Shown here piece by piece: positions 1,442 to 61,145 of a stretch of DNA of 64,000 bases. The notes beneath the pieces were generated by a model. It was not told where the DNA came from. It searched no databases and worked only from the letters and a program-made list of their open reading frames with translations. Position numbers and translations under genes: made by a program. The DNA is from a virus: positions 18,827 through 82,826 of the IMG/VR virus record IMGVR_UViG_3300009149_000020; one strand, given 5' to 3'. Position 1 is the stretch's first letter, and every line of letters begins with the position of its first letter.

Positions 1442-2428
1442 ATGAAAAAAGATCTCGCAAGGGAAATAGCGAAACTTGTTGTAGCAGCAAAACCAGATAC
1501 CCCTCCAAAGGTGAAGCACAAACCCAGTTTAGCGAATATTAATCTAGAGATAGTACATGGTCAGTTACAAAATGAGATAGTAATACACCTTGCTTTACAA
1601 GGAAAGTCAAGCCATGTTAAACAAATGATTAGGCAAAACCTTAATCTTGTTAAAGCAACGTCTACTTTCCTATCGTATGGCACAGATAGTGCTAAGGTTG
1701 TTGTAAGTACAGATTATGTTTCTCATTTTGAATGGCATAGCCCTGTAAAGCGAGGACCCTTAACTCTTTTTATAGCAGCGGTCGTAATAAACGATTTAGA
1801 GCTTACTGAATACATTTTAAAGAAGTTAAGACGCTGCGGGACTTCTTTTGGCTTTCAAACGGAACTGTCTATAGCACTCGCAGTTTCTGCAAGCGAAGGT
1901 TTTCATGACATATGTCTTTTTTTACTTAAGTATATGGAAGAGTGCACGAATTTTAGCCCTAAGCAAAAACCTTTGCAATACTCAAACGGGATTACTATCC
2001 TTACAGCTGCTTCAATGACTGTAGGATCAAAGAAAAATACAGTTTTGATTAAACCTCTCCTTGAAGCTGGAGCAGATATAAATCAGATTTTACATGGAGC
2101 ATTAGTGGAAGCAAAAAAGGAGCTTAATCACCGTAATAACAAAGAGAAGAATGTATCCTATAGAGATTTTATTAAGCAACTTTTTGAGTATGAAGGAAGC
2201 AGCATTGCTATAGCGAGACAGCAGGTTCTCACTAATGAGGACGTTATGAATGTTATGCAAAGATGCAAATTTTCTACTGCTCAGCTAGGTATAATGCTTT
2301 TTAAAATTAAGGATAAAAGAACCAGGTATTTTTTTGAGCAGCTACTTTTAGCAAGAAAAAAGGAGGAAAAGGCTAAAGGTAAAGCTGAAAAAAGAGAGTA
2401 TACAAATAATCATGTTATAAGGAGATAG
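1442..2428 (+). CDS. Ankyrin-repeat protein with shared C-terminal motif
   Basis: AGGAGG before ATG 1442; ANK-like TILTAA...LLEAGADIN; tail STAQLGIMLFKIKDKRTRYFFEQLL. Confidence 0.75.
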   Translation: MKKDLAREIAKLVVAAKPDTPPKVKHKPSLANINLEIVHGQLQNEIVIHLALQGKSSHVKQMIRQNLNLVKATSTFLSYGTDSAKVVVSTDYVSHFEWHSPVKRGPLTLFIAAVVINDLELTEYILKKLRRCGTSFGFQTELSIALAVSASEGFHDICLFLLKYMEECTNFSPKQKPLQYSNGITILTAASMTVGSKKNTVLIKPLLEAGADINQILHGALVEAKKELNHRNNKEKNVSYRDFIKQLFEYEGSSIAIARQQVLTNEDVMNVMQRCKFSTAQLGIMLFKIKDKRTRYFFEQLLLARKKEEKAKGKAEKREYTNNHVIRR

Positions 2429-2429
2429 T

Positions 2430-3932
2430 ATGCCGTTAATAAATAATAAACATTTTGTTACTGTTAAAGAAGCTACTGCACTAGGGAAGTGGAAAAGCAG
2501 TTATTCTATTTATAGACTTATTAGATTAGGCAAAGTTGATAGTATACGTATTGAGTCTAAGTTATTTATAGAAAAGGACTCTCTTTTAGATTATCTGGAT
2601 ACGGGGATTGCTTTTGTTTATAAAGGCTTTGATAAAAGTGGTGAAAGAACTTCAGTTTTATCAGAAAAGGCACTTGCAACTATTGAAGCTAAAAGCAAAC
2701 AGCAAAAAGAACGGGTTAACAAAGTCAAAAAGAATATGGCACTTTCAGGTTATGTCATGAGTAGTGACCTTAGAGAGAAATACAAGATAAGTAAATCACG
2801 TTTTAGTAGATTAATCAAGTTATATAATATAAAGGCAATGTGTTCTTCTTTAGGCAGTAGATTTCCTTTTTATAAACAAGAGGATATAAGAAACATGGTA
2901 GAAACAGAAGAACACCTTAAAGGAGACACTATGCAAACTGTAGATGCTTTTGTAGAAGAAACTTGTCTCCCTGAAGAGGATACTGTTGCTAAAAATATAG
3001 TAAAGTTTGACGGCAGTAATACTGAATGGGTGCCTTTAAGCACTGTTGCAAAAAAACTAAAGTTGACAAACGGTCAGATTAGTCGAGTAGCAAAAAAGAA
3101 GTTACACCTAGACTTAACTAGAAAATATCCTGAAGGTGACACAGATGTAAGACAAAAAGCGAAAAAAGTAAAACATGTACGTAATAAAGACATAGGAAAG
3201 TTGCTTGACTACTTTAAGGAAGACTCGACAGCTGAAGGAAGAGCAGCTATAGAAGAGTTAGTAGTAGTAAGAGAAAAAGGTTATGTAACTGTAAGTGAAG
3301 CCTCCACACTTACAGGTTGTCCTAAAACAAAAATCTATGATATGAAAAATAGAAAAGTTATAGATGCAATATCGACTGCTATTGGATGGTTTGTGCATTT
3401 GGAAGAAGTACAACAGCAGTTTGATGCAGCGAATAAAGTTGAAGTACCTATTGTAAATGAAGAGACTATACCTAAGGAGGTTACAGTTGAAAATCATGAA
3501 ATTGAAGAGGACTCTAGACAAGTTCAGGAACCTCCTAAAACTCAAAGAAAATCTTTTGAGCAACTCAAGCAGGACCTCCCCCTTGCCGCCTCTTCTAGTA
3601 ACACCTCCAAAACAGAAGGAACATTAAAAGTACAGTTACTTGGATCACTTGTTACTATTAAGAAAGGCTATTATGATGATCCAGCTGATTGCCACAAAGG
3701 TATATCTGATGTAGGTAAAAAAGAAATTAAAATAAATTGTAAAGACAAAACCATTATGTTTGACGTTGCTCTTGCGGAACTTACTAGGCAATTTTGCTGG
3801 TTGTCGGGTTATAGAAGCCATCAGATGTTGAAAAGAAATGATATTTGTCATTTAACTTCTGCATTTGTTACAGCTTTATTGAGAGAGAATGGTGATGATA
3901 TCCTCTCAACGCTTAGAGCGTGGTGTAGTTAA
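2430..3932 (+). CDS. Multi-HTH (excisionase/HTH_17-like) DNA-binding protein with degenerate C-terminal zincin-like domain
   Basis: Repeated VTVKEA..IYRLIR and VTVSEA..IYDMK winged-HTH units; C-terminal ALAELTRQF..SG in place of HExxH. Confidence 0.65.
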   Translation: MPLINNKHFVTVKEATALGKWKSSYSIYRLIRLGKVDSIRIESKLFIEKDSLLDYLDTGIAFVYKGFDKSGERTSVLSEKALATIEAKSKQQKERVNKVKKNMALSGYVMSSDLREKYKISKSRFSRLIKLYNIKAMCSSLGSRFPFYKQEDIRNMVETEEHLKGDTMQTVDAFVEETCLPEEDTVAKNIVKFDGSNTEWVPLSTVAKKLKLTNGQISRVAKKKLHLDLTRKYPEGDTDVRQKAKKVKHVRNKDIGKLLDYFKEDSTAEGRAAIEELVVVREKGYVTVSEASTLTGCPKTKIYDMKNRKVIDAISTAIGWFVHLEEVQQQFDAANKVEVPIVNEETIPKEVTVENHEIEEDSRQVQEPPKTQRKSFEQLKQDLPLAASSSNTSKTEGTLKVQLLGSLVTIKKGYYDDPADCHKGISDVGKKEIKINCKDKTIMFDVALAELTRQFCWLSGYRSHQMLKRNDICHLTSAFVTALLRENGDDILSTLRAWCS

Positions 3933-3964
3933 CACTAAGTTTTTATTTGCTACGTTTTTGTGTG

Positions 3965-4026: not shown

Positions 4027-4275
4027 GTGGAACATAATGTAAAAGATGATGTATGTGACCAGCTTTGTGAACAGGTGGTAGAACTACTTAGCTTGAGCAC
4101 TAAAGTAATCGAACTACATCAAAGGTATGATACTTCAAGAGAATTGCGTGATGACCAATCTCGCAAGTTACACAAGGACCTAAGCGGTTATATTGGACTA
4201 TTTATTTGTATAGTTTCAGTAACCGCAATATATATAGCCTCTCTTGTATGGAGAGTGAGGAGGTATAATGGATAG
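4027..4275 (+). CDS. Hypothetical membrane protein
   Basis: GGAGG then GTG start; C-terminal hydrophobic helix. Confidence 0.55.
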   Translation: MEHNVKDDVCDQLCEQVVELLSLSTKVIELHQRYDTSRELRDDQSRKLHKDLSGYIGLFICIVSVTAIYIASLVWRVRRYNG

Positions 4276-4519
4276 AAAACTGTTATGGTTTTATCATATT
4301 TCATCTCGAAAAAATTGGGGAAGGCTTGAATTAAAACAGGGAAATCTTATTATGTTTTATATTGAAAGAGTACCATCAAACGACAACAAACACTTCAGAT
4401 TAGTACATGAGCTAGATTGTCTTAAAAGAGGAGAAGTTTTCCATAAAACTGTTGAAGAGGCTAAAGAAGAAGCACAAAGAATTTGTGACGTTTTTATAAC
4501 AGAAATGAAGGAGGAATAA
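4268..4519 (+). CDS. Hypothetical protein
   Basis: SD and overlap with neighbouring genes. Confidence 0.65.
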   Translation: MDRKLLWFYHISSRKNWGRLELKQGNLIMFYIERVPSNDNKHFRLVHELDCLKRGEVFHKTVEEAKEEAQRICDVFITEMKEE

Positions 4520-5461
4520 ATGAAAAGACTACTTAGGATTCCTTCAGCTAAGGCAGTACATGAAACAGATAGGTTACAGTTTTATAGAGAAACTAACTGG
4601 TCAGGTTTATCGTGGCTTTCAGATACTTCTGAAATAGTACTAAAAGAAGGCATAGAATCAGTTAAATTTAAAAAAGCACCTAACAGAAAAGGAGTAGAGA
4701 TAACTACTCATGTAGTAGACATGTTATTTAAGGATGATTATTCTTACTATGGTGACGCAACTATTTATAGTAATTTATTAGTACCTTTAATAAATAACCC
4801 CTCTGCTACATATGATGTAATAGGGCAGCCTTTTCTTGAAAATGTTGCTTCTAGGATGTCTTTAGCAAGTCTTCAAGCTATAGCTACTCTTACCTTTACA
4901 AGAAAAGCTGAACTAGAGGCATTCTTTGGACAAGCAGTGAAGGATAGAGAGTATGAGAGAGAAGTTAACAAATGTATCTGTTTAAGAACGGACCCTGAGT
5001 TATATGCTAAGCTTGTTGAAATGGGAGTATTTTTTGAGATTAACCTGGCGATAATAAAACACCATTATACAAGTAGAGAGTATGTAGTAGTTGCAGCTGA
5101 ATTACTCAAAGCATTGGTTCCAGAGAAGTATGCAGAATTTTCTAAAATAATATTTAGTGAAATAGTAAAAACTGTAGACGAAGAATGTATAGAAAGGCTA
5201 CAACAGCCGCCTTCTCCTTGGAGGTATAAAGAGGATATTCGAGCTGATTCCAAAGCTACAAAGGAAGGATGGATGGCTGTTAATAAACACGGCGAGGTCA
5301 GTAGTCTGGCTAGTGAGGGACTTAAGAATGTGAGAAGTGCTGTTCGAAGTACAGATGAAGTTTTGCCTAATTGTTATGGAGAAGCTTTTTCTCCTAAAAA
5401 CAAGCAATGTAAACAGTGTGTAATGAGGAATGATTGTCGTACTAAATTTTTGGAGTTTTAA
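4520..5461 (+). CDS. Hypothetical protein with C-terminal 4-Cys motif shared with the SSB
   Basis: 313 aa ORF; tail PNCYGEAFSPKNKQCKQCVMRNDCRTKFL. Confidence 0.75.
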   Translation: MKRLLRIPSAKAVHETDRLQFYRETNWSGLSWLSDTSEIVLKEGIESVKFKKAPNRKGVEITTHVVDMLFKDDYSYYGDATIYSNLLVPLINNPSATYDVIGQPFLENVASRMSLASLQAIATLTFTRKAELEAFFGQAVKDREYEREVNKCICLRTDPELYAKLVEMGVFFEINLAIIKHHYTSREYVVVAAELLKALVPEKYAEFSKIIFSEIVKTVDEECIERLQQPPSPWRYKEDIRADSKATKEGWMAVNKHGEVSSLASEGLKNVRSAVRSTDEVLPNCYGEAFSPKNKQCKQCVMRNDCRTKFLEF

Positions 5462-6183
5462 TGAAAAAAAAGCAAACAAACTCGACGAGCCTTTCACGAG
5501 CTAAGTTACAATTTATTGTTGATAGTTTTGTTATGAATCCTAAATTCATTCTTCAGTTTCTTTATCATTCTATCGACATTCAAGCACATGACAGTTTTGA
5601 TTATGTTTATAGCAGAATAAAAACAGACCCTGAGTTGGAAACGTCGAAGGACTCAATAGACTGGGCGTTATGTATTAAGATAGCCTGTGCTAGAAACGAC
5701 GACAAGCTTATTAAAATTATGTTAACGCATGCAGAGAAATTACTCAATTCAGTTGATTTAAAAGCAGCACTTAATCCTTGTTTAGCCTCTTGCGCTTGCA
5801 ACAACAATCTTAAGATGTATAAGCTTTTAGTTAAAGCAGGCGCAGACATTTCTTACAACCCAGCCTGGTTATTTAGGACATTGACTGCAACAGACAATCT
5901 TGAGTTCATGAAATACTTAGTGGAGACGCTTAAGTATTCCTTATCGGAGGGAGGGAATGCACTAGGAATAGCTATAGAGTCTGAAGCATACGAATGTGCA
6001 AAATACTTGTTTATTGAAAAGCACTCATACCTTCCTACACCTTTTCCTCATGATTTCTTAGACATAGTAGGAGATGCAACTCTAAAGCATATGTTGTTTA
6101 AAAAGACATTGCCCGAACAATACAAAGAATTAATTGGCGAAAGATTTAGTGAGAACAAGAAACAGAGAGGAGGAGTAAAATGA
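5461..6183 (+). CDS. Ankyrin-repeat protein with shared C-terminal motif
   Basis: NNLKMYKLLVKAGADI, DNLEFMKYLVE, NALGIAIESEAYECAKYL; tail GDATLKHMLFKK. Confidence 0.75.
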   Translation: MKKKQTNSTSLSRAKLQFIVDSFVMNPKFILQFLYHSIDIQAHDSFDYVYSRIKTDPELETSKDSIDWALCIKIACARNDDKLIKIMLTHAEKLLNSVDLKAALNPCLASCACNNNLKMYKLLVKAGADISYNPAWLFRTLTATDNLEFMKYLVETLKYSLSEGGNALGIAIESEAYECAKYLFIEKHSYLPTPFPHDFLDIVGDATLKHMLFKKTLPEQYKELIGERFSENKKQRGGVK

Positions 6184-7055: not shown

Positions 7056-7072
7056 GGAAAAAGGAAAGAACA

Positions 7073-7612
7073 ATGAACACACTTGATAATCAATTAATTG
7101 ATGCTGCCAAAGCAGGAAATGTAAAGCTCACTAAATTCCTTTTAATGTCAGGTGCGGCGCCTAATGCCTGCGATCTTAATGGAGTAACGGCACTAATGCG
7201 TACTTGTCATAACCCTATAAGTCTTTTACAGAACAGTGCGATAGAAATAGCTGAATTACTTCTTGAAGCAGGTGCGAATCCAAATATCAACGATACCTTA
7301 GGAGGTACCCCTCTTGCTTATTCTATAAGGAATCGATATGACACTAGTCAAGTTTTGATATCTTTGCTCATCGAAGCGGGCGCAGACGTTAATCAGGCAC
7401 AGGAAGGAGGATACCCTGCTTTGCTTCTTTTAGGTTATCATCCTAACTACTCTAAAGCGGAGATGTTAGTGAATGCAGGTGCTGATGTAAACGCTGTAGT
7501 TAATGGCATACGCTTATTACAAAGATTACTGTCATTACATTTTCTTTATGGGAGTTCTACAATAGATCGTATTATACAATTACTTGTAGCTAATGGTGCT
7601 ACGCTAACTTAA
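7073..7612 (+). CDS. Ankyrin-repeat protein
   Basis: GVTALM, LLEAGANPN, GGTPLAY, LIEAGADVN. Confidence 0.9.
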   Translation: MNTLDNQLIDAAKAGNVKLTKFLLMSGAAPNACDLNGVTALMRTCHNPISLLQNSAIEIAELLLEAGANPNINDTLGGTPLAYSIRNRYDTSQVLISLLIEAGADVNQAQEGGYPALLLLGYHPNYSKAEMLVNAGADVNAVVNGIRLLQRLLSLHFLYGSSTIDRIIQLLVANGATLT

Positions 7613-7624
7613 GGAGGATTTACA

Positions 7625-9645: not shown

Positions 9646-9655
9646 GAGGTATGAA

Positions 9656-9964: not shown

Positions 9965-9970
9965 GGAGGA

Positions 9971-10554: not shown

Positions 10555-10727
10555 TGGACCAACAAACTAAGGAAAGAATTGTGGAGAAAGTTTATGATTG
10601 GTTGATGTCTCAATCTTTTGAAGATTGGCAAGAAACAATTTTTATGGATCATGTGTGTGCGGAAGAAGGCTGTCAGTCACGCGAAGAGATTAAAGAAACA
10701 ATTTCTCGCAAGTTATTCAAAGATTGA
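10554..10727 (+). CDS. Small hypothetical protein (not in ORF track)
   Basis: AGGAGGAGG SD, ATG 10554, 57 aa, fills the gap between genes. Confidence 0.55.
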   Translation: MDQQTKERIVEKVYDWLMSQSFEDWQETIFMDHVCAEEGCQSREEIKETISRKLFKD

Positions 10728-25257: not shown

Positions 25258-26728
25258 GATTAAAGGAAAGTACACTGAAGCAATTGTACATATTGATGAG
25301 GTAGAAGAAAGCTGCATTGCGCAAATTCAGTCAATGTGCAATCATTCTGCATTTACAAACCCTATTAAAATCATGCCTGATTGTCATGCAGGTAAAGGTT
25401 CTGTGATAGGCTTTACTATGCCGTTAGGAGACATGCTAATTGCTAATGTGGTCGGAGTTGACATAAACTGCGGAATGCTGTCTATAAATGTAGGCCCTGA
25501 CGCATTTACAAAGTTAACTTTTGTTGAAGTTGAGAAAAAGATAAGAGAAGCTATTCCATTCGGAATGTCAACACATACTCCAGAAGACGCTATTAATATG
25601 GAGAAAGAGTTTCCGTGGAAGAACGTTAATGAAGAAGTAAGAGAATTTCTAAGGGCATTTGAAAAGAAATTTGGCTTTACAGTGGCTCCTCCTGTTATTA
25701 ATTATGAATGGTTCAGGGCTAAGTGTAAACAAATAAGCTGTGACCCTTCAAGAGCTATAAGAAGTCTCGGAACACTTGGCTCGGGCAATCATTTCGTCGA
25801 AGTTGGAAAGGCTGAAACCACTAGAGACTACTGGGTTACAATCCATTCAGGTTCTAGAAACTTTGGTAAATGTATTTGTGATTATTGGCAAGGAGTTGCT
25901 AAGAAAATGCTCGATGATAAAAGAAACGGTGCATATCAAGAGAGAGTGTTAACGCTTAGAAGTAACCACGAAGCTGCCGGTACACCTGAGTTAATTCCTC
26001 AAGGCATAAAGCAACTTCGAGAAGAGTTAGGCTTTCTTGGTATAACCAAAGGAATGGAAGCATTAGAAGGAACTGATATGCTTAGTTATTTGATAGACAT
26101 GGTCTTTACACAGAAGTATGCTGATGTGAACAGACAAGTCATGGCTTTCAAAATTAAAGGTATCTTTAAGTGTGAAGAAAAAGACTCTATTCACACTAAA
26201 CATAACTTTATAGACTTCAAGGATTTCATAATTCGTAAAGGAGCTATCAGAAGTTATGTAGATGAAAGAATGATTATTCCTTTTAACATGCGTGATGGTA
26301 TTTTAATCTGTGAAGGCAAATCTAATACTGACTGGAACTTTTCAGCTCCTCATGGTGCAGGAAGAGTAATGAGCAGAGGAGATGCAAAAAGGAAACTTAA
26401 CATGGAGCAGTTTACACATCAGATGAAAGGCATCTATACTACGTCTGTTTGTGAAAGCACATTAGACGAAGCTCCTAATGCTTATAAAAAGTCAGAGTTA
26501 ATTGAAAGTTTGATAGGAGACACAGTTACAATTCTTGATAGGGTTAAACCAGTAATTTCTATGAAAGACAGAGGCTCTGCTCAAACTGCTATTGATAGAA
26601 AGAAAGCAAAAAGATCGTGGAAGAAAGAAAGAAGAGAAGCTGCAAGATACAAAATGCAGGAAGCAAACGCAACTGCAAACCTTCAGAATAACAGACATGG
26701 AGTAGATGAAGAAGGGAGGTTATTTTGA
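25250..26728 (+). CDS. rtcB: RtcB family RNA ligase
   Basis: MPDCHAGKG, GVDINCGM, GTLGSGNHFVE, HSGSR, HNF, RKGA, SAPHGAGR, DEAPNAYK. Confidence 0.95.
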   Translation: MIEIKGKYTEAIVHIDEVEESCIAQIQSMCNHSAFTNPIKIMPDCHAGKGSVIGFTMPLGDMLIANVVGVDINCGMLSINVGPDAFTKLTFVEVEKKIREAIPFGMSTHTPEDAINMEKEFPWKNVNEEVREFLRAFEKKFGFTVAPPVINYEWFRAKCKQISCDPSRAIRSLGTLGSGNHFVEVGKAETTRDYWVTIHSGSRNFGKCICDYWQGVAKKMLDDKRNGAYQERVLTLRSNHEAAGTPELIPQGIKQLREELGFLGITKGMEALEGTDMLSYLIDMVFTQKYADVNRQVMAFKIKGIFKCEEKDSIHTKHNFIDFKDFIIRKGAIRSYVDERMIIPFNMRDGILICEGKSNTDWNFSAPHGAGRVMSRGDAKRKLNMEQFTHQMKGIYTTSVCESTLDEAPNAYKKSELIESLIGDTVTILDRVKPVISMKDRGSAQTAIDRKKAKRSWKKERREAARYKMQEANATANLQNNRHGVDEEGRLF

Positions 26729-27798
26729 GTTATCGTGATAGAGAGGAGTATGCAGGACGTATATTCGTAAACTTAGGAAGTCCTAAAGGTGAACGTAGTT
26801 TAGATGAGGTTTTGGTAGACTCTTCTTTTACAGAAAAGACAATGCCGGCTGTTTATGCACAGATTAAAAAGCAGGTACCCGATATGTTAGCAGTTTTGTA
26901 TAACGGGACTCCTTACACAGGTCGTTTCACTAATGTTCTTAGCTTAGCTTTTCAGAATAATAACCCTTCAATATTTCTTTTTCTATTAAAAATCTTTTTA
27001 AGGAAAAGGGTGAAGAAAAAGCTGCGTTTGTATAATACATACGGTGATGTCATGTCCGCACAACAGATACTATATCAGGCCTGCAAGAAAGACTGTAAAG
27101 TATATGATCTTTTAAAAGCGTTAATAGACGATGCAGGGTTGCCTTACAAGACAGCATTTGGTAAGAATTACTTTATCCACTACATTGCAAAGGTGTTATC
27201 GCCCGACATTTGTATTAAGGAATGCACCAAGCTTGTAGAGTTTTTAATTAGTAAAGGTTATACGCTCAATGATAAAAAGCAAGTTCCTGCTATCTTTTCT
27301 GCATGCGTGCAGGGAAAGCTTAAGATGCTTCCTGTGTTGCTTAAACATTCTACTGTTAAAAGTTTAAATGTCTCTTATAAAAAATGTACCCCGTTAACAC
27401 TACTGCCAATACATTCTAAAAAATTAGGAAATGCTACTATTATGAAGGCTGTAAAATCTCTTATTGCTGCCGGAGCTGATCCTACTTTTTGTCCAGAGGA
27501 AGGCGTAACACTTTGGGAAGCTGCTGTAAAGTATAAAAATTGGGAGCTAGCACAGTTTCTTGTAAAAAAGAAATATAATGGACCTAGCGATTTATTGGAA
27601 AGAGATCTTGCTATTTTTTCAAAGATTTTTCAAAAAGAAGAAATCTACACACTGCAGGATGTAATTGAGCTTCTTAACGTAATTACAATGTTCCCTAAAG
27701 GCGTCTTTTCTGCATTATGTTTTTCAAAAGATCCATTAACTAAGGAGTTCGCTATAACGCTTCTTAAGCTTCAAGATTATTTTAAGGAGAATAAATAA
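26725..27798 (+). CDS. Ankyrin-repeat protein with shared C-terminal motif
   Basis: LIAAGADP, GVTLWEAAV; tail FPKGVFSALCFSKDPLTKEFA. Confidence 0.8.
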   Translation: MSYRDREEYAGRIFVNLGSPKGERSLDEVLVDSSFTEKTMPAVYAQIKKQVPDMLAVLYNGTPYTGRFTNVLSLAFQNNNPSIFLFLLKIFLRKRVKKKLRLYNTYGDVMSAQQILYQACKKDCKVYDLLKALIDDAGLPYKTAFGKNYFIHYIAKVLSPDICIKECTKLVEFLISKGYTLNDKKQVPAIFSACVQGKLKMLPVLLKHSTVKSLNVSYKKCTPLTLLPIHSKKLGNATIMKAVKSLIAAGADPTFCPEEGVTLWEAAVKYKNWELAQFLVKKKYNGPSDLLERDLAIFSKIFQKEEIYTLQDVIELLNVITMFPKGVFSALCFSKDPLTKEFAITLLKLQDYFKENK

Positions 27799-28497: not shown

Positions 28498-29325
28498 ATG
28501 CCTAAATTAACATTTTCAACAGATATGCAAAATCGCTTGCCTGAACTAATACGACGTTTAGACATCACACAGTTTCAACAGCATGCGGTTTATATTAGAG
28601 AGCGTTGTAATATTGCGTTTAAACGCCATGGCACCTTATGGCCTAATCTTTTATTTTATGCAGTGGAGCATCACGTAGCCTATGGGTCCCGTTATGGACG
28701 TAATGTTATGGAGGGGGTGGAATTAATCACGCTTTTAGTTGAGTGGGGCCATAACGTCAACTTAGCAAACAAGCGTGAAGGCGATAACTTAGCACATCGT
28801 ATATGCTACAATTCTGAGCATCCTGCAGCGGTACAAATATTAAAACTTTTAGCAAGGCATGGATTGGATCTTCATTTAAAAAATAAGATTGGTGCTACCC
28901 CTTTATCGAAAACCCTTACTTTTCAGCGCCCTAATCCAGATGTGCTTAGATTTTTATTAGACAAAGGCGCAGATGTAACAGTTATGATTAAACCGTATAA
29001 TAGGAATTTGCTTTATTATTTAATTAGGCATCATCAATATTCCTTTATTGATGAGTTTATTGAAAAAGGCTGTGACCTACTACACCAGGATAATAAAAAA
29101 CAGTTAGCAATTGAGGCATTACTAACTACAAATTACACTTTAGATAAATTGACCGTATTATTTACTATATTTCAACGAGTACCTGAAGCTGTGTTGAGAC
29201 GGTTCTGTTTTTCTGAGAACAAAAAACTTAGGGCTTTTTGTAGTCTTTTAATCCAACTTAGACAGCAAGTTAGGAACAGTGACGCAAGGGAGGAAAATCA
29301 AAATGAGAAAAGTGCTACATATTAA
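28498..29325 (+). CDS. Ankyrin-repeat protein with shared C-terminal motif
   Basis: GATPLS, FLLDKGADV; tail VPEAVLRRFCFSENKKLRAFC. Confidence 0.85.
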   Translation: MPKLTFSTDMQNRLPELIRRLDITQFQQHAVYIRERCNIAFKRHGTLWPNLLFYAVEHHVAYGSRYGRNVMEGVELITLLVEWGHNVNLANKREGDNLAHRICYNSEHPAAVQILKLLARHGLDLHLKNKIGATPLSKTLTFQRPNPDVLRFLLDKGADVTVMIKPYNRNLLYYLIRHHQYSFIDEFIEKGCDLLHQDNKKQLAIEALLTTNYTLDKLTVLFTIFQRVPEAVLRRFCFSENKKLRAFCSLLIQLRQQVRNSDAREENQNEKSATY

Positions 29326-29752: not shown

Positions 29753-29924
29753 ACTTAAATTTAGTGATGGTATTGAATTTGAGACTAGTGGTGCCTTTAG
29801 AGTAGAAACAAGACATGATGGTCATTATGTAGTTGGACGAGGTTTTTTAATACCTGTCATGTCAGAGGACGAAGGAAGAGAAAAGATTAAAGACTTAGTG
29901 AGGAAGGAGGTTAATAATGAGTAA
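29745..29924 (+). CDS. Small hypothetical protein
   Basis: GGAGG SD; LKFSDG..F.TSG..R..R.DG.YVVG. Confidence 0.6.
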   Translation: MGKLKFSDGIEFETSGAFRVETRHDGHYVVGRGFLIPVMSEDEGREKIKDLVRKEVNNE

Positions 29925-31032
29925 ATCTGCAGAAGTTCCAGCATTGGCTACATGCCCTCTTGTCCGGTTAGGCAGATTTACTGTAATGGAAACCGTTCAT
30001 ACGTTACGCACCGAAACGCAGTTTACAAGTATTGTTGCTAATCTGGCTAAGCTTAACATCTCTATTGATGACCCGTTTGTATGGACGTCATCACTTTATA
30101 CTTTCTTCCATGAAGGGCCTCGTCCCGTGACAAATCTATTAACAGAAGCTGTATCGTCAGGAAATGCTAGTTTTACACTATGGTTATTGAATCAAGGTAT
30201 TAAGCCTAGCATTTATAATACCAAAGGAATTGCCGAGCCATCGCATCTCCTATACAAATTGTTACGTGTTGCTGGCAGAAGAAGGACTTCCTTAGCCGCA
30301 CTTATACAAACGTATAAGTTTCTCCTTTCCAAATACAACTTTGATTTTCAAGCACTGGATGCTCCTTACGGTAACAAAAAGACATTGCTTCACACAGTAT
30401 GTGAAATCTCCACAACTCGAGAAAGAGAGCTTGAGGCTTTGATGCAGTTTTTAATTGAAGCAGGGGTTAACATTAATCAACAAGACTCCGGAGGAAATAC
30501 CTCATTGCACATAGCAGTAAATACGTCATTGTCTGCTACACGCACTCTATTAAAGTTTTCCCCTGAATTAAACATTTTTAATAACTCAGGACAAACACCT
30601 TTGTTAAAAGCATGTCAGCTCGGAAGTGACTTAATAGTACCTATACTGTTAGAGGCGGGTGCTGATGTTAATGCTAAACATAAAAAATCAGGAGCAACAC
30701 CTTTATCTATCGCCATAGGTAAAAGAAATTGGGAGATGTTTAATTGTTGTATGAAGGCGGGTGCTAATAGTGCGCAAGCCTTCGAAGGACCGGAAAGTCC
30801 TTTAAAAGAAATGTTTAGAAAGACACATAAGAACACGCCTTATGGAGCGACATGTGCTTTTCTTGATTTGATTGCTGCCCTCCCTGTTGAAATGTTATCA
30901 GTAATGTGTTTTGCTAAAGATACTAAAACGAGTACATTAGCAAAAAAGATGCTTGTGTTAAAACAACGTTTTACAGAGCACGACGCAGCAAAAGCTACAA
31001 AGGAGGATGTCGATGGATTGGCAACCACGTGA
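29917..31032 (+). CDS. Ankyrin-repeat protein with shared C-terminal motif
   Basis: GNTSLHIA, GQTPLLKA, LLEAGADVN, GATPLSIA; tail LPVEMLSVMCFAKDTKTSTLA. Confidence 0.9.
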   Translation: MSKSAEVPALATCPLVRLGRFTVMETVHTLRTETQFTSIVANLAKLNISIDDPFVWTSSLYTFFHEGPRPVTNLLTEAVSSGNASFTLWLLNQGIKPSIYNTKGIAEPSHLLYKLLRVAGRRRTSLAALIQTYKFLLSKYNFDFQALDAPYGNKKTLLHTVCEISTTRERELEALMQFLIEAGVNINQQDSGGNTSLHIAVNTSLSATRTLLKFSPELNIFNNSGQTPLLKACQLGSDLIVPILLEAGADVNAKHKKSGATPLSIAIGKRNWEMFNCCMKAGANSAQAFEGPESPLKEMFRKTHKNTPYGATCAFLDLIAALPVEMLSVMCFAKDTKTSTLAKKMLVLKQRFTEHDAAKATKEDVDGLATT

Positions 31033-35493: not shown

Positions 35494-36366
35494 ATGGCAT
35501 ATATTAGTTTCAAAAAACCTAGCACAAAAAAGCATCGACCTAATCTTAAAAGTAAAGATTTAAAAGTGCTTAATCACGATACAATTAAACCTTGGATACA
35601 AAAGCATTTATATGCGTCTGCGTTAGGGTATGTTAAGAGTCGCTCGAGGGTGAAGGAAGAGTATCCTTCTAAAGCTACAGATTTGTTTATGCTTTTAAGA
35701 ACGCTAAAGATTCCTATTAGAGGAAGACTTCTTTTTGCCATTGGAGAAAGAGGCACAGTACAGTTTATAAGCTGGTTTATTGATGAGATGCAAAACGGGA
35801 AACTTTCACACTCGTCAGCCTATCGTATATTAATGGGAATGGTTTACAGTGGAAGGCGTGATGAAATCGCATACTTACTTAAAAAATATATACATCTTTT
35901 TAAACCTGTATTACACAAACCTTGGAATCAGCACGCTGATGGAGCTATGGGTAACTCCATTTTTTCAGCCCTAACTAATGTAAATGGAGGATATCACCCT
36001 GATATTAGGGACATCCTAAAAGAAGCGTTTAAAGGTGAAAATATTCCCGAACTATTTCCTAAAAACACTTTCCTAGAGTTACTAACGTATCGGAAGGTTA
36101 AGTGTGCTTTAGTAATACTTGATGTATTAAGCATTAACCCCTTTGTAGACATACCCTCTAAATACTTTGAATTAGAAGGAAGAGGGAGTAACAACTTTGT
36201 AGGTTATGAAAAAGAACTAACTAATGTACTATGCCAGTATATAGTTAACAATTGTGATGAATCTGAAGCAAGTATGTTATGTTTTCATAAAAATACAATA
36301 ATAAAACAGGCTGCTTCTAACGCTCTACTACTTATCAGTAAAGGAGAAAATAATGGAGACGTTTAA
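35494..36366 (+). CDS. Helical protein with shared C-terminal motif
   Basis: Paralogue of 21564/33354; tail DESEASMLCFHKNTIIKQAA. Confidence 0.7.
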   Translation: MAYISFKKPSTKKHRPNLKSKDLKVLNHDTIKPWIQKHLYASALGYVKSRSRVKEEYPSKATDLFMLLRTLKIPIRGRLLFAIGERGTVQFISWFIDEMQNGKLSHSSAYRILMGMVYSGRRDEIAYLLKKYIHLFKPVLHKPWNQHADGAMGNSIFSALTNVNGGYHPDIRDILKEAFKGENIPELFPKNTFLELLTYRKVKCALVILDVLSINPFVDIPSKYFELEGRGSNNFVGYEKELTNVLCQYIVNNCDESEASMLCFHKNTIIKQAASNALLLISKGENNGDV

Positions 36367-37021
36367 AGTTCATACTAGCTCTTATAAACTTGCTAAACTT
36401 GGAAATTTTTTATCATACTTCGATTGTCCTTTTCCTCCAAGAATAAGTGATGGCGCAACATTGTTAGGGGCCATCCTCGAATTAATGAAAAGAGGGGCAA
36501 CTGTTGAATTACCTGAAACATTTAAAACTTCTAAGGATTGGTGGGATAGAGCGGCTTATTGTTTAACAACAGGAAAGGAGCTTCCAAATGACACATCTAA
36601 GTTAGTGAGGTGCGCTTACTTAATGACTTGTCCTGAAGTAGAAGAAGCCAAGCATAATTCTTACGAAGTAATTAGAGCATTATACTATACAGCAAATAAT
36701 TGGACAGACCCTGATTGGTTGTTGGATGACTCTGCTAAGATACGTAGACAAGGTGCTGTATTGAGCCCAAGCGTTGACTTTACCCAAGAGAGTGTAACAA
36801 CAGCATATATCGCTTTACTTAATGATATTCTTCAAACTACACATGCTAAACGTTTAACTAGTAAAAATGACTTTAACATTTTACGAACATTACAAAAGCT
36901 GGAGAAAGCTATACTTTCGCGTTTACTACTTGAGAATGACAAAATTATACACCCACGTTTTAAAAAAGTTATTAAAGACATTCTTGACGAAGTACCAGTT
37001 GAAAAGATTTTTGGAGGGTAA
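36353..37021 (+). CDS. Hypothetical protein with shared C-terminal motif
   Basis: Tail LEKAILSRLLLENDKIIHPRFKKVI. Confidence 0.65.
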   Translation: METFKVHTSSYKLAKLGNFLSYFDCPFPPRISDGATLLGAILELMKRGATVELPETFKTSKDWWDRAAYCLTTGKELPNDTSKLVRCAYLMTCPEVEEAKHNSYEVIRALYYTANNWTDPDWLLDDSAKIRRQGAVLSPSVDFTQESVTTAYIALLNDILQTTHAKRLTSKNDFNILRTLQKLEKAILSRLLLENDKIIHPRFKKVIKDILDEVPVEKIFGG

Positions 37022-37025
37022 GCGT

Positions 37026-37850
37026 ATGGGATGGTTAACCGGAAAGGGTACCGAAGTAGAGAAAAAGGAAAAAACAGAAGATGTGTTTGACTATAAGATT
37101 AAAAGAGATTCAGACAATTATGTTAACGTTAAACACTATAGGCAAAAGTATTCGCTTAATTATCGAGATAGGTTTGAGTATTATGCTAATGTAACGGACT
37201 GGAAGGACGAAGACGCAAGAGACGATCCTGCAGAAACAGTCAGACGTACTTACTATGATACGTGTGCTTGGAAGGATGCTTATGCAAAAAAAGATGAGTC
37301 TGTAACTATTAGATATACTTATTACAAAAATAATAAATGGAAGGACGCTGATGCAAAAAAAGATGAAAATGCAGATATACGTATTTCCTACTATGATGCT
37401 CATAACTGGTCTGACTTTGATTGGTATACGGAGACAAACTTATCTGTTATAAACAAAGGTTTTAGCTCCTGCCAGTCATTCTTAATAAACGACGACTTTA
37501 TACAATGCTTAGAACTAGTTCTTGTACAGCCACCACCTTATTCTCAGATCGCAGTATGGTTAGGCCCCTTTGACCTATATTCTTTATTTAAACTAGTATC
37601 TAGGTTATCTGAAGCACTATGTTCTAGATTATTATTTGCTCAGTTGCAAGACGCAACTCGAGAGCTTATTGGATTTTTTATGACAATTAAGAATGATGAT
37701 AAAAAATTTGTACAGTTCTGGCAGATCATTATAGAAGCTAATGATGATCATCCATCTTTAAAGTGTACCTCACTAGCTACAGCTGTAGCAGAATGTACTG
37801 TCGCAGATTTAGAAGAGACGGAGGAAGTGATTGAAGAAACCGAAATATAG
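37026..37850 (+). CDS. 23-aa repeat (WxDxxAxxD...IRxxYY) protein with shared C-terminal motif
   Basis: WKDEDARDD..VRRTYY, WKDAYAKKD..IRYTYY, WKDADAKKD..IRISYY; LSEALCSRLLFAQLQDATRELI. Confidence 0.75.
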   Translation: MGWLTGKGTEVEKKEKTEDVFDYKIKRDSDNYVNVKHYRQKYSLNYRDRFEYYANVTDWKDEDARDDPAETVRRTYYDTCAWKDAYAKKDESVTIRYTYYKNNKWKDADAKKDENADIRISYYDAHNWSDFDWYTETNLSVINKGFSSCQSFLINDDFIQCLELVLVQPPPYSQIAVWLGPFDLYSLFKLVSRLSEALCSRLLFAQLQDATRELIGFFMTIKNDDKKFVQFWQIIIEANDDHPSLKCTSLATAVAECTVADLEETEEVIEETEI

Positions 37851-38097: not shown

Positions 38098-38949
38098 ATG
38101 ACCACTGAAGAAAACGCAAAGTTTTTGAAAACATTTATAGAGAAAATAGATTATACTGTCATAAATGGCGCCACTTTACGCATAATGACATCTGGCTTAC
38201 TAGCACTAAAAGCAGCAAGAAACCTTACGAAGGTTACGGTAAGATCTAATTGCCTAGTTTCACGTAACTGGCAGTACTCTACCATATTTATAAATATGTT
38301 TGATGCTATTACATGTGATTGTACTAAAGAGGATGAGCAAAAGTATTTAAAGAATTTAGACATAAGCGTAAGACTTTGCTATTATGCAAATGCACAAAAT
38401 ATTAAATTGATGTTTGAGGATCATTGTGTAGATGTTAGGAGAATAGGGTATGAGTTAGCAATGTATCCAGAGGAGATGAAAAAAGATAGAGCGACTAGTA
38501 TTCGCCGTGGGTATTATAAGTATCATCATATGGGATATCATTTAGATATGAAACATGATACGCATTATGAGGTAAAGAGACAATATTACAAACATAACGC
38601 TTATCAAGATATAGATTGGATCATCGATCCTCACAGTCAAATTTTTTGCAATGGTTTTAATAATGCGTTGGATGGTAATCGTTTGTCCGATGACCAAGTA
38701 GCAGCGCTTAAAGCATCATTAACTAAGCGGCATATAAAAAGATTTTTTGAAAGAATCATAAACCTTAATTATTATAGTCAACGATTCACTAGTAATAATG
38801 TGGGTAAACAGCAACTTCTTAGTATCATGTATGATTTAGCGCCAACACTATTTGTGCGTACTGTATTTTCATTAAAGGACGCAGAAGCACGAAAGGCCTG
38901 GCAATCAATAGTTCATGAGAAAGAAAGGAGGAACGTATGCAAGAAGTAG
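38098..38949 (+). CDS. D...VRxxYY repeat protein with shared C-terminal motif
   Basis: Repeats DISVRLCYY, DRATSIRRGYY, DTHYEVKRQYY; tail APTLFVRTVFSLKDAEARKAW. Confidence 0.7.
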   Translation: MTTEENAKFLKTFIEKIDYTVINGATLRIMTSGLLALKAARNLTKVTVRSNCLVSRNWQYSTIFINMFDAITCDCTKEDEQKYLKNLDISVRLCYYANAQNIKLMFEDHCVDVRRIGYELAMYPEEMKKDRATSIRRGYYKYHHMGYHLDMKHDTHYEVKRQYYKHNAYQDIDWIIDPHSQIFCNGFNNALDGNRLSDDQVAALKASLTKRHIKRFFERIINLNYYSQRFTSNNVGKQQLLSIMYDLAPTLFVRTVFSLKDAEARKAWQSIVHEKERRNVCKK

Positions 38950-56074: not shown

Positions 56075-56090
56075 AAAGGAGAATACGTAA

Positions 56091-59373: not shown

Positions 59374-59795
59374 TTAAAAAGAGTTTCACACTTGGCTTAA
59401 ATGTTGCATTGAATACGTCCGATAATGTTATGACTTTCTGTATACCTAAAACAAGGCTATCCTTCACTTTAAAGACTGAAGGAGAGAAGGAAGTTGCTAA
59501 GGCTTTCAATACTCTCGATTTTGCACAATCTGATACTTTTAGACCGGGCGCTATGAATGCTGGTTTAGATGGAACTAAGAAAGGGCTAATGTTTCATAAC
59601 ATGGAATGCACTGTTCTTTTACAGTCCTCTACTATCTTATTAAAAGATCAGAGGAGAGTATTTGTGCATTCGATTAACATAGCTACGGAGTATAAACATA
59701 CTATGAACATTCTTTATGTAAATCCTATAGACATGTTAATTAAATTTTCAGAGTTTTTTGAAGAAGGAGAAGTATTATATACTAAGATGGCTTAA
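59370..59795 (+). CDS. Hypothetical protein
   Basis: ATGA overlap, AAGGAG SD. Confidence 0.65.
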   Translation: MIKKSFTLGLNVALNTSDNVMTFCIPKTRLSFTLKTEGEKEVAKAFNTLDFAQSDTFRPGAMNAGLDGTKKGLMFHNMECTVLLQSSTILLKDQRRVFVHSINIATEYKHTMNILYVNPIDMLIKFSEFFEEGEVLYTKMA

Positions 59796-59809
59796 AGGAA
59801 GTATACGTA

Positions 59810-60565
59810 ATGGCATTTGATTGCACCGATGATGACAACAGGATGATGGCTATCCTAACTAAGCTTAGAGAAAAATATCCTATTCCTCTTGAGGATATAG
59901 AATTTGCTAGAAATCGACCAAATCCTGAACATAGGCAAGGTTATTATGAAGCTGTTAACTGGGATGACGATAACGCAAAACTAGACGCTGCTCCTAAGAT
60001 AAGGTATATTTACTATGCTAAATGGTCTTGGGAGGACGAAGCTGCTATAAAAGATATTGATCTTTCGATAAGAGCTGCTTACTTTACAAATAATCCTAAA
60101 GATGAGAGAGCTAAAGAAGCTCCAGAATTTTCTATACAGATGCAATACTTTGCCAACAACCCACTTGACCCAGTTGCAGCTGTTCATTCAAATGAATTTA
60201 TAAGACTTCAATATCATCAAGCTTCCTCGTGGAAAGACTATTCATGGTATAACGATGAAAGCATAATGATTATCAGAATGGGCTTTCTAAATTGTACTGA
60301 CTTTACTATCACAGAATCATTCTATCAAGCTCTTGAGAAACTATTCACAACGCAATTCTGCACAAGCACCGTAAACTTAAAAATTGTACTTAGAAGACTT
60401 GATGCTATAGTGCTGGCTGCTCTTGCTTTTAGAAAGATTATTGATCCAAATGTTAAAAATATTATACAACAAGTATTAAAGGAGAAACAAAATGTCGCCG
60501 AAATATCAAGATCCACGGATAGCTTACATACCGATGACTCGGACAGCCCTGAAGAGGGCTATTAG
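59810..60565 (+). CDS. WxD..A..D...IR..YY repeat protein with shared C-terminal motif
   Basis: Paralogue of 37026; tail LDAIVLAALAFRKIIDPNVKNII. Confidence 0.75.
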   Translation: MAFDCTDDDNRMMAILTKLREKYPIPLEDIEFARNRPNPEHRQGYYEAVNWDDDNAKLDAAPKIRYIYYAKWSWEDEAAIKDIDLSIRAAYFTNNPKDERAKEAPEFSIQMQYFANNPLDPVAAVHSNEFIRLQYHQASSWKDYSWYNDESIMIIRMGFLNCTDFTITESFYQALEKLFTTQFCTSTVNLKIVLRRLDAIVLAALAFRKIIDPNVKNIIQQVLKEKQNVAEISRSTDSLHTDDSDSPEEGY

Positions 60566-61145
60566 AAAACAATGTCAATTTGTTTATGCCAGGGTACTAT
60601 CTCAGAGTCCCTTAGGTAATGTGCTGTGCAATCCTTTAGTTAGTGCATGGGCTAGAGGTTTTCAATATAGATGGTACGAAAGAACAGAAGAGTTAAACTT
60701 AGTAATTCATTGGCATGCGTTAATGTTCTGTCCTAATGTTTGCAGGTTGATTAAAATGCAGCCTCAAATAGCGTGGGACGTATTTGAAAACTTATACAAG
60801 AACACAGATATAGCAATGCTTGACAATTCAACTAAGTTATTGATAGAAAACATAAACGATACTCGTACTGTATTACAAAAACTGGAACCCGGAATAAATG
60901 AGTTAGAATTAAATAGAAGAGCTAATGTATTAGGTCATCAGGTCATTCCACAGTTAGTACTTGATTTCTTCTTTAACGAGCAGTTCATAATAGCACAAAC
61001 AAAAAAGTTTTTAAGAAATTTAAATATGTTAACCGAAGTTAAACACTTACTGTTCTCTGGTGTTACACAAGCACCGTTTATGCGTGAAGGTATTACTGCT
61101 TATTTAGAAGAGAGTGAAAATAATAATAAAGAGAGTATTACTTAA
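60492..61145 (+). CDS. Hypothetical protein with shared C-terminal motif
   Basis: AAGGAG SD; tail LTEVKHLLFSGVTQAPFMREGI. Confidence 0.65.
   Translation: MSPKYQDPRIAYIPMTRTALKRAIRKQCQFVYARVLSQSPLGNVLCNPLVSAWARGFQYRWYERTEELNLVIHWHALMFCPNVCRLIKMQPQIAWDVFENLYKNTDIAMLDNSTKLLIENINDTRTVLQKLEPGINELELNRRANVLGHQVIPQLVLDFFFNEQFIIAQTKKFLRNLNMLTEVKHLLFSGVTQAPFMREGITAYLEESENNNKESIT

What the first reader, a model, noticed from the sequence alone, without database searches (positions are those of the whole stretch)
1442..61145. About 15 proteins with unrelated repeat scaffolds share one C-terminal helical tag: a candidate modular adaptor system
Seen: a motif about [PSDE]-x-x-[hydrophobic]-x-x-[LM]-[LCA]-[FL]-x(2-5)-[DN]-x(3)-[KR]-x-[hydrophobic], near the C-terminus and preceded by an amphipathic helix. 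In ankyrin proteins: 1442 STAQLGIMLFKIKDKRTRYFF, 5461 GDATLKHMLFKK, 26725 PKGVFSALCFSKDPLTKEFA, 28498 PEAVLRRFCFSENKKLRAFC, 29917 PVEMLSVMCFAKDTKTSTLA, 31013 PEGLLTAMLFAIPAKNKEARDLL. In a second family: 33354 KEKHLGMLAMRKD, 35494 DESEASMLCFHKNTIIKQAA. In WxD/YY-repeat proteins: 37026 SEALCSRLLFAQLQDATRELI, 38098 APTLFVRTVFSLKDAEARKAW, 59810 DAIVLAALAFRKIIDPNVKNII. In repeat-less proteins: 34728, 36353, 60492. Weaker copies in 7920 and 21564. Known: a variable substrate-binding repeat plus a constant docking box is the logic of poxvirus ANK-PRANC and SOCS/F-box adaptors in eukaryotes. Inference: a phage arsenal that binds diverse host targets and docks them on one common partner (protease/unfoldase, phage hub protein or packaging machinery). 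I know of no described bacteriophage equivalent.
Basis: partly seen in the sequence, partly recalled or inferred. Interest (0 to 1): 0.82.

Follow-up and report, generated by a model that had tools for sequence, protein, structure and literature searches.

The report
Shared C-terminal helical tag, phage binders
An uncultured large subsurface phage puts the same roughly 45-residue three-helix tail on at least 17 proteins built from two unrelated repeat scaffolds; the tail behaves like a portable handle for a common partner, but that partner and the function are unknown.

Summary
The core observation is real, but the membership list needed correcting. A module of about 45 residues lies 0-49 residues from the C-terminus of 17 proteins on this 82.8-kb contig. 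It consists of helix 1, a short hydrophobic helix 2 capped by P/S/D and usually ending in F, a loop, and a basic amphipathic helix 3.

Ten tagged genes lie in the window and seven lie upstream. Six are ankyrin proteins. Eleven belong to a new 23-residue alpha-solenoid family.

Profiles trained on one scaffold family find the other family's tails in register and above all decoys. The module sits 12-89 residues after the last repeat, so it is not a simple cap. Protein 36353 is a solenoid member, not repeat-less.

The tag has no match in Pfam, PHROGs, PDB sequences or 1.84 billion representative proteins outside this phage. A sister phage contig (RNA polymerase beta' 62% identical) has a variant of it, with genome-wide residue shifts. 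PRANC and F-box membership was tested and not met.

The best reading is a lineage-specific docking handle for one co-evolving partner. That reading is inferred, not shown. Earlier notes of this scan report analogous lineage-specific C-terminal tags in other huge phages; I did not check them.

The parts
1403..2428 (+). Ankyrin protein with C-terminal tag (probable true start ATG 1442); tag core at 2240-2365
   Evidence: Pfam Ank_2. Tag 42.1 bits in the combined HMM, 23.6 bits with the HMM of the other family only, 21.7 bits leave-one-out.
5461..6183 (+). Ankyrin protein with a weak, partial tag; tag core at 6052-6141
   Evidence: Pfam Ank_2. Cross-family HMM 9.1 bits in register, but only 1.6 bits leave-one-out and no BLAST support through the tag. 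A probable member only.
26725..27798 (+). Ankyrin protein with tag; tag core at 27667-27783
   Evidence: Pfam Ank_2. 22.2 bits leave-one-out and 10.3 bits cross-family.
28498..29325 (+). Ankyrin protein with tag; tag core at 29155-29271
   Evidence: Pfam Ank_2 1.9e-12. 10.3 bits leave-one-out. Cross-family PSSM z = 4.9 in register.
29917..31032 (+). Ankyrin protein with tag; tag core at 30853-30972
   Evidence: Pfam Ank_2 4e-26. 9.0 bits leave-one-out. This tail was the first sequence of the folded tail model: three helices, pLDDT 80.5.
31007..32137 (+). Ankyrin protein with tag; tag core at 31961-32083
   Evidence: Pfam Ank 1.3e-17. 16.9 bits cross-family and 20.4 bits leave-one-out.
36353..37021 (+). 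Short member of the 23-residue alpha-solenoid family with tag; tag core at 36872-37000
   Evidence: BLAST to 59810 at E 6.6e-8, with the alignment running through the tag. 35.7 bits in the combined HMM.
36867..37850 (+). Alpha-solenoid family protein with tag (probable start 37026); tag core at 37581-37697, followed by 45-49 further residues
   Evidence: BLAST to family members at E down to 3.7e-22. 18.2 bits leave-one-out.
38098..38949 (+). Alpha-solenoid family protein with tag; tag core at 38806-38928
   Evidence: BLAST at E 2e-7 to g4077 through the tag. 40.0 bits in the combined HMM. No hit in leave-one-out.
59810..60565 (+). Alpha-solenoid family protein with tag, just downstream of the RNA polymerase genes; tag core at 60371-60496
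   Evidence: AF2 model, pLDDT 85.4: a solenoid of short-plus-long helix pairs, then the tail helices at 187-196, 199-206 and 213-237. 21.9 bits leave-one-out. Its counterpart by position in the sister phage keeps the tag (BLAST 6e-17 through the tail).
7073..7612 (+). Ankyrin-only paralog without the tag. The same holds for 20655-21224 and 21194-21571, and for three more upstream of the window.
   Evidence: Pfam Ank_2 9e-20. No tag hit with the HMM. Shows that the tag is separable from the scaffold.

Best explanation
WHAT IT IS. The tag is an autonomous, lineage-specific protein module of about 45 residues.
- Helix 1 has the hydrophobic pattern h-h-x-x-h-h.
- A P/S/D cap precedes a short, almost wholly hydrophobic helix 2, which in this phage usually ends in F.
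- A loop of variable length, often K-D, follows.
- Helix 3 is amphipathic and opens with a near-invariant K/R.

HOW IT AROSE. During the evolution of this phage lineage the module was shuffled onto at least two structurally unrelated binder scaffolds: ankyrin repeats and a new 23-residue alpha-solenoid.

HOW IT MOST LIKELY WORKS. The variable repeat domains bind diverse targets. The constant tail is a handle that tethers all of them to one common partner, and that partner co-evolves with the tag. This points to a phage-encoded partner or a fast-evolving host partner.

My leading concrete guess is loading into the virion for co-injection. In that case the tail would act like the helix-loop-helix coat-binding end of a scaffolding protein. 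Absolute odds are about 0.2. Next comes an adaptor for a host machine such as an AAA+ protease, at about 0.12.

SHOWN: the module, its cross-scaffold homology, its modularity, and its restriction to this lineage.
INFERRED: docking, and the identity of any partner.
For: - Cross-family profile hits are in register and above all decoys.
- Exactly 17 members are found in six frames.
- The tail alone is predicted confidently as three helices, with core pLDDT 90-96. The same helices appear inside a full-length solenoid model, after a dip in pLDDT.
- The distance from the last repeat is variable: 27-89 residues in solenoid proteins and about 12-52 in ankyrin proteins (envelopes).
- Six ankyrin-only paralogs lack the tag.
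- Tail similarity is as high between scaffolds as within them. The nearest tails of w1403 and w5461 are on solenoid proteins.
- The tag is kept in sister phage contig G001 on the gene in the same position and on other family members. There it probably also sits on small proteins and other scaffolds.
- Three tag positions differ genome-wide between the two phages: F 13/17 against 0/10, K 2/17 against 7/10, D 0/17 against 6/10, with p from 1.5e-4 to 4e-3. A shared co-evolving reader would produce this.
- Tagged genes take up 15% of the genes and 18% of the DNA on the contig.
Against: - No partner has been identified, and no interaction was tested.
- What is conserved is mainly hydrophobic core positions, so the conservation could reflect fold alone.
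- Structural neighbours of the tail are generic HEAT-like helical hairpins. In the solenoid family the tail could simply continue the helical array.
- The genome-wide residue shifts could also come from lineage-specific expansion of the families after the two phages split.
- The extra G001 members score only 9-12 bits against a natural-sequence background of up to 9.3 bits.
- Both contigs cover only about a third of their genomes, so the structural genes, and any hub protein, were not seen.
- There is no conserved protease-cleavage motif next to the tag, unlike the T4 capsid-targeting sequences (alignment).
Confidence: 0.45

Rival explanations
1. There is no common partner. The tail is a small structural subdomain (a terminal helical hairpin or stabiliser) inherited within each family and exchanged once or twice by recombination. 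It is conserved only because it folds.
For: - The conserved positions are mostly hydrophobic core positions.
- Fold neighbours are generic HEAT-like repeats at Z <= 4.5 or TM about 0.6.
- In the solenoid model the tail follows directly on further helices.
Against: - Linker lengths are variable: 12-89 residues.
- The tail occurs on a non-helical-hairpin scaffold (ankyrin) after P/G-rich linkers.
- Ankyrin-only paralogs do without it.
- Tails from the two scaffolds intermix in similarity.
- It persists in the sister phage, with residue changes in step across that genome.
Confidence: 0.25
2. The tails bind each other, so the tag is an oligomerisation module. It would assemble ankyrin and solenoid proteins into mixed multivalent complexes, and the 'common partner' would be other tagged proteins.
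For: - Helix 2 is hydrophobic on nearly all faces. A three-helix unit of 45 residues cannot bury that on its own.
- Residue changes in step across a genome also fit self-recognition.
Against: AF2 folds the tail confidently as a monomer. There is no heptad coiled-coil pattern. Nothing was tested directly.
Confidence: 0.1
3. The tail is a truncated F-box/PRANC-like box. In that case these would be effectors aimed at a eukaryote's SCF ubiquitin ligase, as in poxvirus ANK-PRANC proteins and the Wolbachia phage WO eukaryotic association module.
For: - The architecture is the same: ankyrin repeats followed by a short C-terminal helical box beginning h-P-x-x-h-h-x-x-h-h.
- PRANC is known in phage WO (PMC5062602).
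- A few giant-virus F-box proteins appear among non-significant fold hits, at E 1.5-2.4.
Against: - Pfam PRANC (PF09372) and F-box-like (PF12937) find no match at E <= 10 in either phage contig.
- Pfam hmmscan gives no F-box or PRANC hit at E <= 0.1.
- The tail profile finds no F-box among PDB sequences.
- The tag also sits on non-ankyrin proteins.
- The phage has bacterial features: an 87-nt class II tRNA-Tyr, Shine-Dalgarno sites at 86 of 114 genes and intrinsic terminators, and a bacterial-type beta'.
- It comes from a subsurface metagenome.
Confidence: 0.03
4. Chance or compositional artefact: amphipathic helices at protein ends that merely look alike.
For: Six listed proteins are not significant.
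Against: Cross-family HMM scores reach 23.6 bits, against a maximum of 8.5 in 2,280 decoys and 5.7 in the other natural proteins of the contig. The register is found in 16 of 17 tails. Minus-strand and reversed controls are silent.
Confidence: 0.02

Closest known systems
Poxvirus ankyrin-repeat proteins with a C-terminal PRANC (F-box-like) domain, and ANK/PRANC genes of the Wolbachia phage WO eukaryotic association module (PMC5062602)
   Same: A multigene family. N-terminal variable ankyrin repeats act as the target binder, and a short constant helical box at the C-terminus acts as the handle. The logic is many binders and one docking box.
   Different: There is no sequence membership: PF09372 and PF12937 find nothing at E <= 10. 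The tag here also sits on a non-ankyrin solenoid. The host is apparently bacterial and subsurface, so there is no SCF ligase to dock on.
C-terminal helix-loop-helix coat-binding domain of phage scaffolding proteins (P22 type), T4 capsid-targeting sequences, and encapsulin cargo-loading peptides (compared from my own knowledge, not tested here)
   Same: A short terminal helical element with key basic residues directs otherwise unrelated proteins into an HK97-fold shell. Large phages are known to package paralogous protein families.
   Different: No sequence or fold match was found. The T4 signal is N-terminal and is cleaved off, whereas no cleavage motif flanks this tag. The capsid genes of this phage are not on the contig, so nothing could be tested.
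Dockerin-cohesin system of cellulosomes, and adaptor tails such as the SspB XB peptide for ClpX (compared from my own knowledge)
   Same: Diverse functional domains carry one constant C-terminal docking element that is read by a single hub.
   Different: Dockerins are Ca-binding duplicated loop-helix units and act outside the cell. The XB tail is a short unstructured peptide at the free end. This tag is a folded three-helix unit, and it is often followed by 5-49 more residues.
Secreted phage ankyrin proteins of sponge-symbiont 'ankyphages' (bioRxiv 10.1101/608950)
   Same: Ankyrin-repeat proteins encoded by a phage.
   Different: Those are single secreted proteins aimed at a eukaryotic host's immune cells. 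Here 12 ankyrin genes lie on one contig, six of them with a shared tail, and I saw no signal peptides on reading the sequences.

Membership tests
F-box / PRANC (PF00646, PF12937, PF09372) | Sequence match to the family profile | tested here: not met
   PF09372 and PF12937 were searched in six frames of both phage contigs and gave no match at E <= 10. Pfam hmmscan of all candidates at E <= 0.1 listed only ankyrin families.
F-box / PRANC (PF00646, PF12937, PF09372) | Three-helix F-box fold | tested here: inconclusive
   The tail model has three helices. The best PDB matches are generic (Foldseek E >= 1.6, VIA Z <= 4.5), and F-box chains appear only among the noise.
F-box / PRANC (PF00646, PF12937, PF09372) | Binds Skp1 of an SCF ligase in a eukaryotic cell | not testable with these tools
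   The context argues against it: bacterial-type tRNA-Tyr, Shine-Dalgarno sites, terminators and beta', and a subsurface source.
Ankyrin repeat proteins (PF12796 / PF00023) | Match to the ankyrin profiles over the curated cut-off | tested here: met
   Genes 5461, 26725, 28498, 29917 and 31007 exceed the Ank_2 cut-off. Gene 1403 is below it (22.3 against 27.3 bits) but is linked to the family by phmmer.
HEAT / LRV-type alpha-solenoids | Match to a HEAT, HEAT_PBS or LRV profile, or a clear fold match | tested here: inconclusive
   No Pfam or PHROG hit. The AF2 model is an alpha-solenoid of short-plus-long helix pairs. The best Foldseek hits are TOG, importin and alphaRep at E >= 0.1.
T4-type capsid-targeting sequence | N-terminal leader removed at a conserved prohead-protease site | tested here: not met
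   The tag is C-terminal, and no conserved cleavage motif flanks it in the 17-sequence alignment.
Scaffolding-protein-like coat-binding helix-loop-helix | Binds the major capsid protein, and the tagged proteins are found in virions | not testable with these tools
   There are no capsid genes on either contig (both are about one third complete). There is no culture and no proteome.
Dockerin | Duplicated Ca-binding loop-helix segments | tested here: not met
   No Pfam dockerin hit. No D/N-rich Ca loops are visible in the alignment.

The most novel reading that the evidence does not exclude
A bacteriophage-encoded modular adaptor system. A library of natural binder scaffolds (ankyrin and a new alpha-solenoid, possibly others) would be coupled through one three-helix handle to a single hub. 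The hub could be the capsid interior, so that an arsenal of host-protein binders is injected with the DNA. Or it could be a proteolytic or other host machine, so that many host targets are processed by one effector. Functionally this would be a prokaryotic-virus counterpart of F-box/PRANC substrate receptors.
Probability: 0.15. Interest if true: 0.88.

Novelty: new variant of a known kind. Interest (0 to 1): 0.58.

Why it matters
If the tail is a docking handle, this phage shows how a large virus of bacteria can diversify target recognition cheaply. It would duplicate and vary repeat binders while keeping one constant connector to a shared machine. So far that design is known from eukaryotic viruses and cells (PRANC, F-box, SOCS) and from cellulosomes.

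Finding the reader of the tag would assign a role at once to about one gene in seven of this lineage. It would also give a natural, portable pair of tag and receptor.

Earlier notes of this scan report different short C-terminal tags in several other huge phages. If those hold, lineage-specific tagging of accessory proteins may be a general, undescribed feature of large phages.

Even on the modest reading, the tail and the 23-residue solenoid are new protein families with no relatives outside this clade.

Tried and rejected
- F-box/PRANC homology: rejected by profile searches and by the PDB sequence profile search.
- Fold searches with the tail model against PDB (Foldseek and VIA-wide) and BFVD: only generic helical matches, uninformative. 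The ESM Atlas gave HEAT-like neighbours only.
- Tail profile against 1.84 billion representative proteins: it returned only the 17 proteins of this contig.
- The search for homologous proteins with gene 59810: it found only itself.
- Megablast of 12 kb of the window against GenBank phages: no match.
- The search for related loci with the beta subunit alone found nothing.
- Eight more distant large phage records carrying RNA polymerase genes: no tag.
- The protein downstream of beta in metagenome contig L022 looked tag-like by eye, but no profile supports it.
- I first read the RNA polymerase as archaeal-like, from the ~900-residue metagenomic hits. I rejected this: the top 60 PDB matches are all bacterial beta'.
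- DNA-binding helix-turn-helix reading of the tail: considered and dropped. The helix 2-3 loop varies in length and no HTH family or fold came up.
- No RNA holder is listed among public runs, so nothing can be said on expression.

Full report
CONTEXT

The window is bases 18827-82826 of a single 82,826-bp virus record, which CheckV rates 36% complete. All genes run on the + strand and GC is about 36%.

The record carries these recognisable genes:
- a family A DNA polymerase, at most 30% identical to any GenBank phage polymerase;
- RecA, RtcB and a LigD-type phosphoesterase;
- compact RNA polymerase beta' and beta genes, and a protein with sigma region 4 plus two alpha-CTD domains;
- 21 tRNA genes.

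Several features point to a bacterial host:
- tRNA-Tyr is 87 nt long, the class II form typical of bacteria (the link to bacteria is my own knowledge).
- 86 of 114 genes have a Shine-Dalgarno site, and intrinsic terminators are visible.
- The beta' subunit matches bacterial beta' chains best.

The DNA is held almost completely by one subsurface metagenome run.

THE TWO SCAFFOLDS

All-against-all BLAST of 114 + strand genes gives two large paralog groups.

The first group is ankyrin, confirmed by Pfam. It has 12 genes. Six are long proteins with a tail, and six are short ankyrin-only proteins.

The second group has 11 members built from a 23-residue repeat (D..[VI]R..YY...W.D.DA..D). It closes with an invariant W-x-D-x-x-W...G cap. 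This group has no Pfam or PHROG hit. AlphaFold, run with the 11 paralogs as the alignment, gives a confident alpha-solenoid of short-plus-long helix pairs (pLDDT 85.4). That model resembles HEAT, TOG and alphaRep proteins only weakly (Foldseek E >= 0.1). The two scaffolds are therefore unrelated in sequence and in repeat architecture.

IS THE SHARED TAIL REAL?

Both families end in the same arrangement:
- helix 1, with the pattern h-h-x-x-h-h-x-x;
- a hydrophobic residue followed by a P/S/D cap;
- helix 2, x-x-h-h-x-x-h-h-F;
- a loop of 2-7 residues, often K-D;
- helix 3, opening with K/R in 16 of 17 members and continuing h-h-x-x-h-h-x-x-K/R.

I tested the link without circularity.
- An HMM built only from the solenoid family's tails finds ankyrin tails at the expected place: 23.6, 16.9, 10.3 and 9.1 bits. 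The maximum over 2,280 shuffled proteins is 8.5 bits, and the maximum among the other natural proteins of the contig is 5.7 bits.
- The ankyrin-only HMM finds a solenoid tail at 15.6 bits, against a decoy maximum of 10.4.
- A gapped block PSSM trained on the other family picks exactly the aligned register as the best site in 16 of 17 tails of 70 residues. In the one exception the tag lies mostly outside the 70 residues scored.
- With all 17 tails in the profile, members score 23-47 bits. Nothing else on either strand exceeds 4.9 bits.
- A six-frame search of the contig returns exactly these 17.
- In leave-one-out tests 11 tails are significant on their own. Five weaker solenoid tails are covered by full-length BLAST alignments (E <= 2e-7) that run through the tag. 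Only gene 5461 lacks both kinds of support, so it is a probable member only.

WHAT IS NOT SUPPORTED

This holds with the contig's own HMM (at most 1.9 bits), with the block PSSM, and with a profile widened by the sister phage (at most 4.7 bits).

Protein 36353 is a short solenoid-family member, not a repeat-less protein.

Seven members lie upstream of the window, at genome positions 4077-15927. In total, 17 of 114 genes and 18% of the DNA encode tagged proteins.

IS IT JUST A REPEAT CAP?

Several observations say no.
- The distance from the invariant cap glycine of the solenoid to the tag is 27-89 residues.
- In ankyrin proteins the gap after the last Pfam ankyrin envelope is about 12-52 residues.
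- Six ankyrin-only paralogs have no tail.
- The tag profile never hits inside the repeat regions.
- Tail similarity between scaffolds is as high as within them. The nearest tails of two ankyrin proteins are on solenoid proteins, and the reverse also occurs.
- AlphaFold folds the 59-residue tail alone as three helices (residues 11-24, 27-33 and 39-58 of the model), with pLDDT 90-96 in the core.
- In the full solenoid model the same helices follow a dip in confidence.

One caution remains. Structural neighbours of the tail are generic HEAT-like hairpins. In the solenoid family the tail may therefore stack on the array.

DISTRIBUTION

The tail profile finds only the 17 proteins of this contig among 1.84 billion representative proteins. 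It finds nothing among PDB sequences.

A sister phage was found through beta' at 62% identity: an IMG/VR contig of 84,002 bp, GC 42%, rated 33% complete. It shares a replication and transcription block in the same gene order.

The solenoid gene just downstream of beta in the sister phage, matching gene 59810 by position, ends in the same tail. The BLAST alignment (E 6e-17) runs through it. Two more family members there have the tail too.

Iterative profiles add seven probable carriers in that contig:
- three small proteins;
- a membrane protein;
- a 405-residue protein of another family;
- two proteins of the 'MKxRxGFVSNSSS' family, in which the module follows the N-terminal leader.

These additions score only 9-12 bits, against decoy maxima of 7.5-8.7 bits and a natural-sequence outlier of 9.3 bits. 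I treat them as probable only.

Eight more distant large phage records with RNA polymerase genes have no match. The same search did ring in both phages of the clade.

GENOME-SPECIFIC FLAVOUR OF THE TAG

Three tag columns differ between the two phages across all carriers:

| Column | This phage | Sister phage | p |
|---|---|---|---|
| F at the end of helix 2 | 13/17 | 0/10 | 1.5e-4 |
| K in mid helix 2 | 2/17 | 7/10 | 0.004 |
| D after the conserved K/R | 0/17 | 6/10 | 7e-4 |

The F preference spans ankyrin proteins and two solenoid subfamilies, and each subfamily has a counterpart in the sister phage. A reader that co-evolves with the tag would produce this pattern. Lineage-specific expansion after the split could also produce part of it.

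WHAT IT IS NOT

The tail is not a member of the PRANC or F-box families.
- The Pfam profiles find nothing at E <= 10 in either phage.
- hmmscan lists only ankyrin families.
- Fold searches put F-box chains only among noise.

With a bacterial host and a subsurface habitat there is no SCF ligase to use. The resemblance to ANK-PRANC is one of design, not descent.

The tail also lacks the features of dockerins and of T4 capsid-targeting leaders.

MECHANISM

Shown: a folded, portable C-terminal module that has been shuffled between unrelated binder scaffolds, expanded to one gene in seven, kept in a sister phage and confined to this clade.

Inferred: it is a handle for one common partner. The concerted residue shifts suggest that the partner evolves with the phage.

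My leading concrete candidate is virion loading. Three points favour it: the analogy with the basic helix-loop-helix coat-binding ends of scaffolding proteins, the fact that large phages package paralog families, and the value of an injected set of binders as immediate counter-defence. All three rest on my own knowledge, and I give this about 0.2.

An adaptor role toward a host machine is next, at about 0.12. Self-association of the tags, and a purely structural role, remain open. None of these could be tested here, because both contigs lack the structural region and no interaction tool was available.

LITERATURE

Four full-text searches found the following:
- phage WO ANK/PRANC genes (PMC5062602);
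- secreted ankyphage proteins (bioRxiv 10.1101/608950);
- no account of a shared C-terminal module on phage ankyrin or solenoid families.

Notes of this scan list different short C-terminal tags in other huge phages. I did not verify them.

VERDICT

The finding is a new, lineage-restricted example of the 'variable binder plus constant handle' design, with its reader unknown.

Noticed in passing
window 53168-59249 and 10743-12017: The phage encodes compact bacterial-type RNA polymerase beta' (968 aa) and beta (1052 aa). It also encodes a 424-aa protein that combines sigma-70 region 4 with two alpha-CTD domains. The top 60 PDB matches of beta' are all bacterial (E about 1e-85). Thousands of metagenomic proteins match beta' at E <= 1e-10, and apart from the phage's own copy and two closer relatives the best 120 listed are mostly 885-910 residues long and 33-38% identical. 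I do not know what those are.
   Followed up: partly
window 25250-26728, 51579-53129, 61561-63643: An RtcB RNA ligase and a LigD-type 3'-phosphoesterase are encoded together with the 21-tRNA array. This looks like a tRNA repair kit. tRNA-Asn (88 nt) and tRNA-Asp (82 nt) are unusually long.
   Followed up: no
L001 2709-4067, window 34198-34713; sister contig G001 74529-76713: A family of proteins opens with the near-identical leader MK[IV]RxGF[VI][SA]NSSS and lies next to a radical-SAM gene. In the sister phage at least two members (G001 74920-75357 and 75354-75689) seem to carry the tag-like module directly after this leader. A third (74529-74966) looks similar but scores only 3.6 bits.
   Followed up: partly
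sister contig G001 62271-62855: A 194-aa protein with several hydrophobic segments has a tag-like module (11.9 bits) in the stretch between them. If it is real, the module is not restricted to soluble repeat proteins.
   Followed up: no
L001 453-1593; window 7073-7612, 20655-21571: Six short ankyrin-only proteins (100-189 aa) have no tail. Three of them lie in tandem at the start of the contig.
   Followed up: partly
window 4520-5461 and 44226-45152: BLAST links the C-terminal ~55 residues of an accessory protein to the end of the putative SSB (E 2.6e-6).
   Followed up: no
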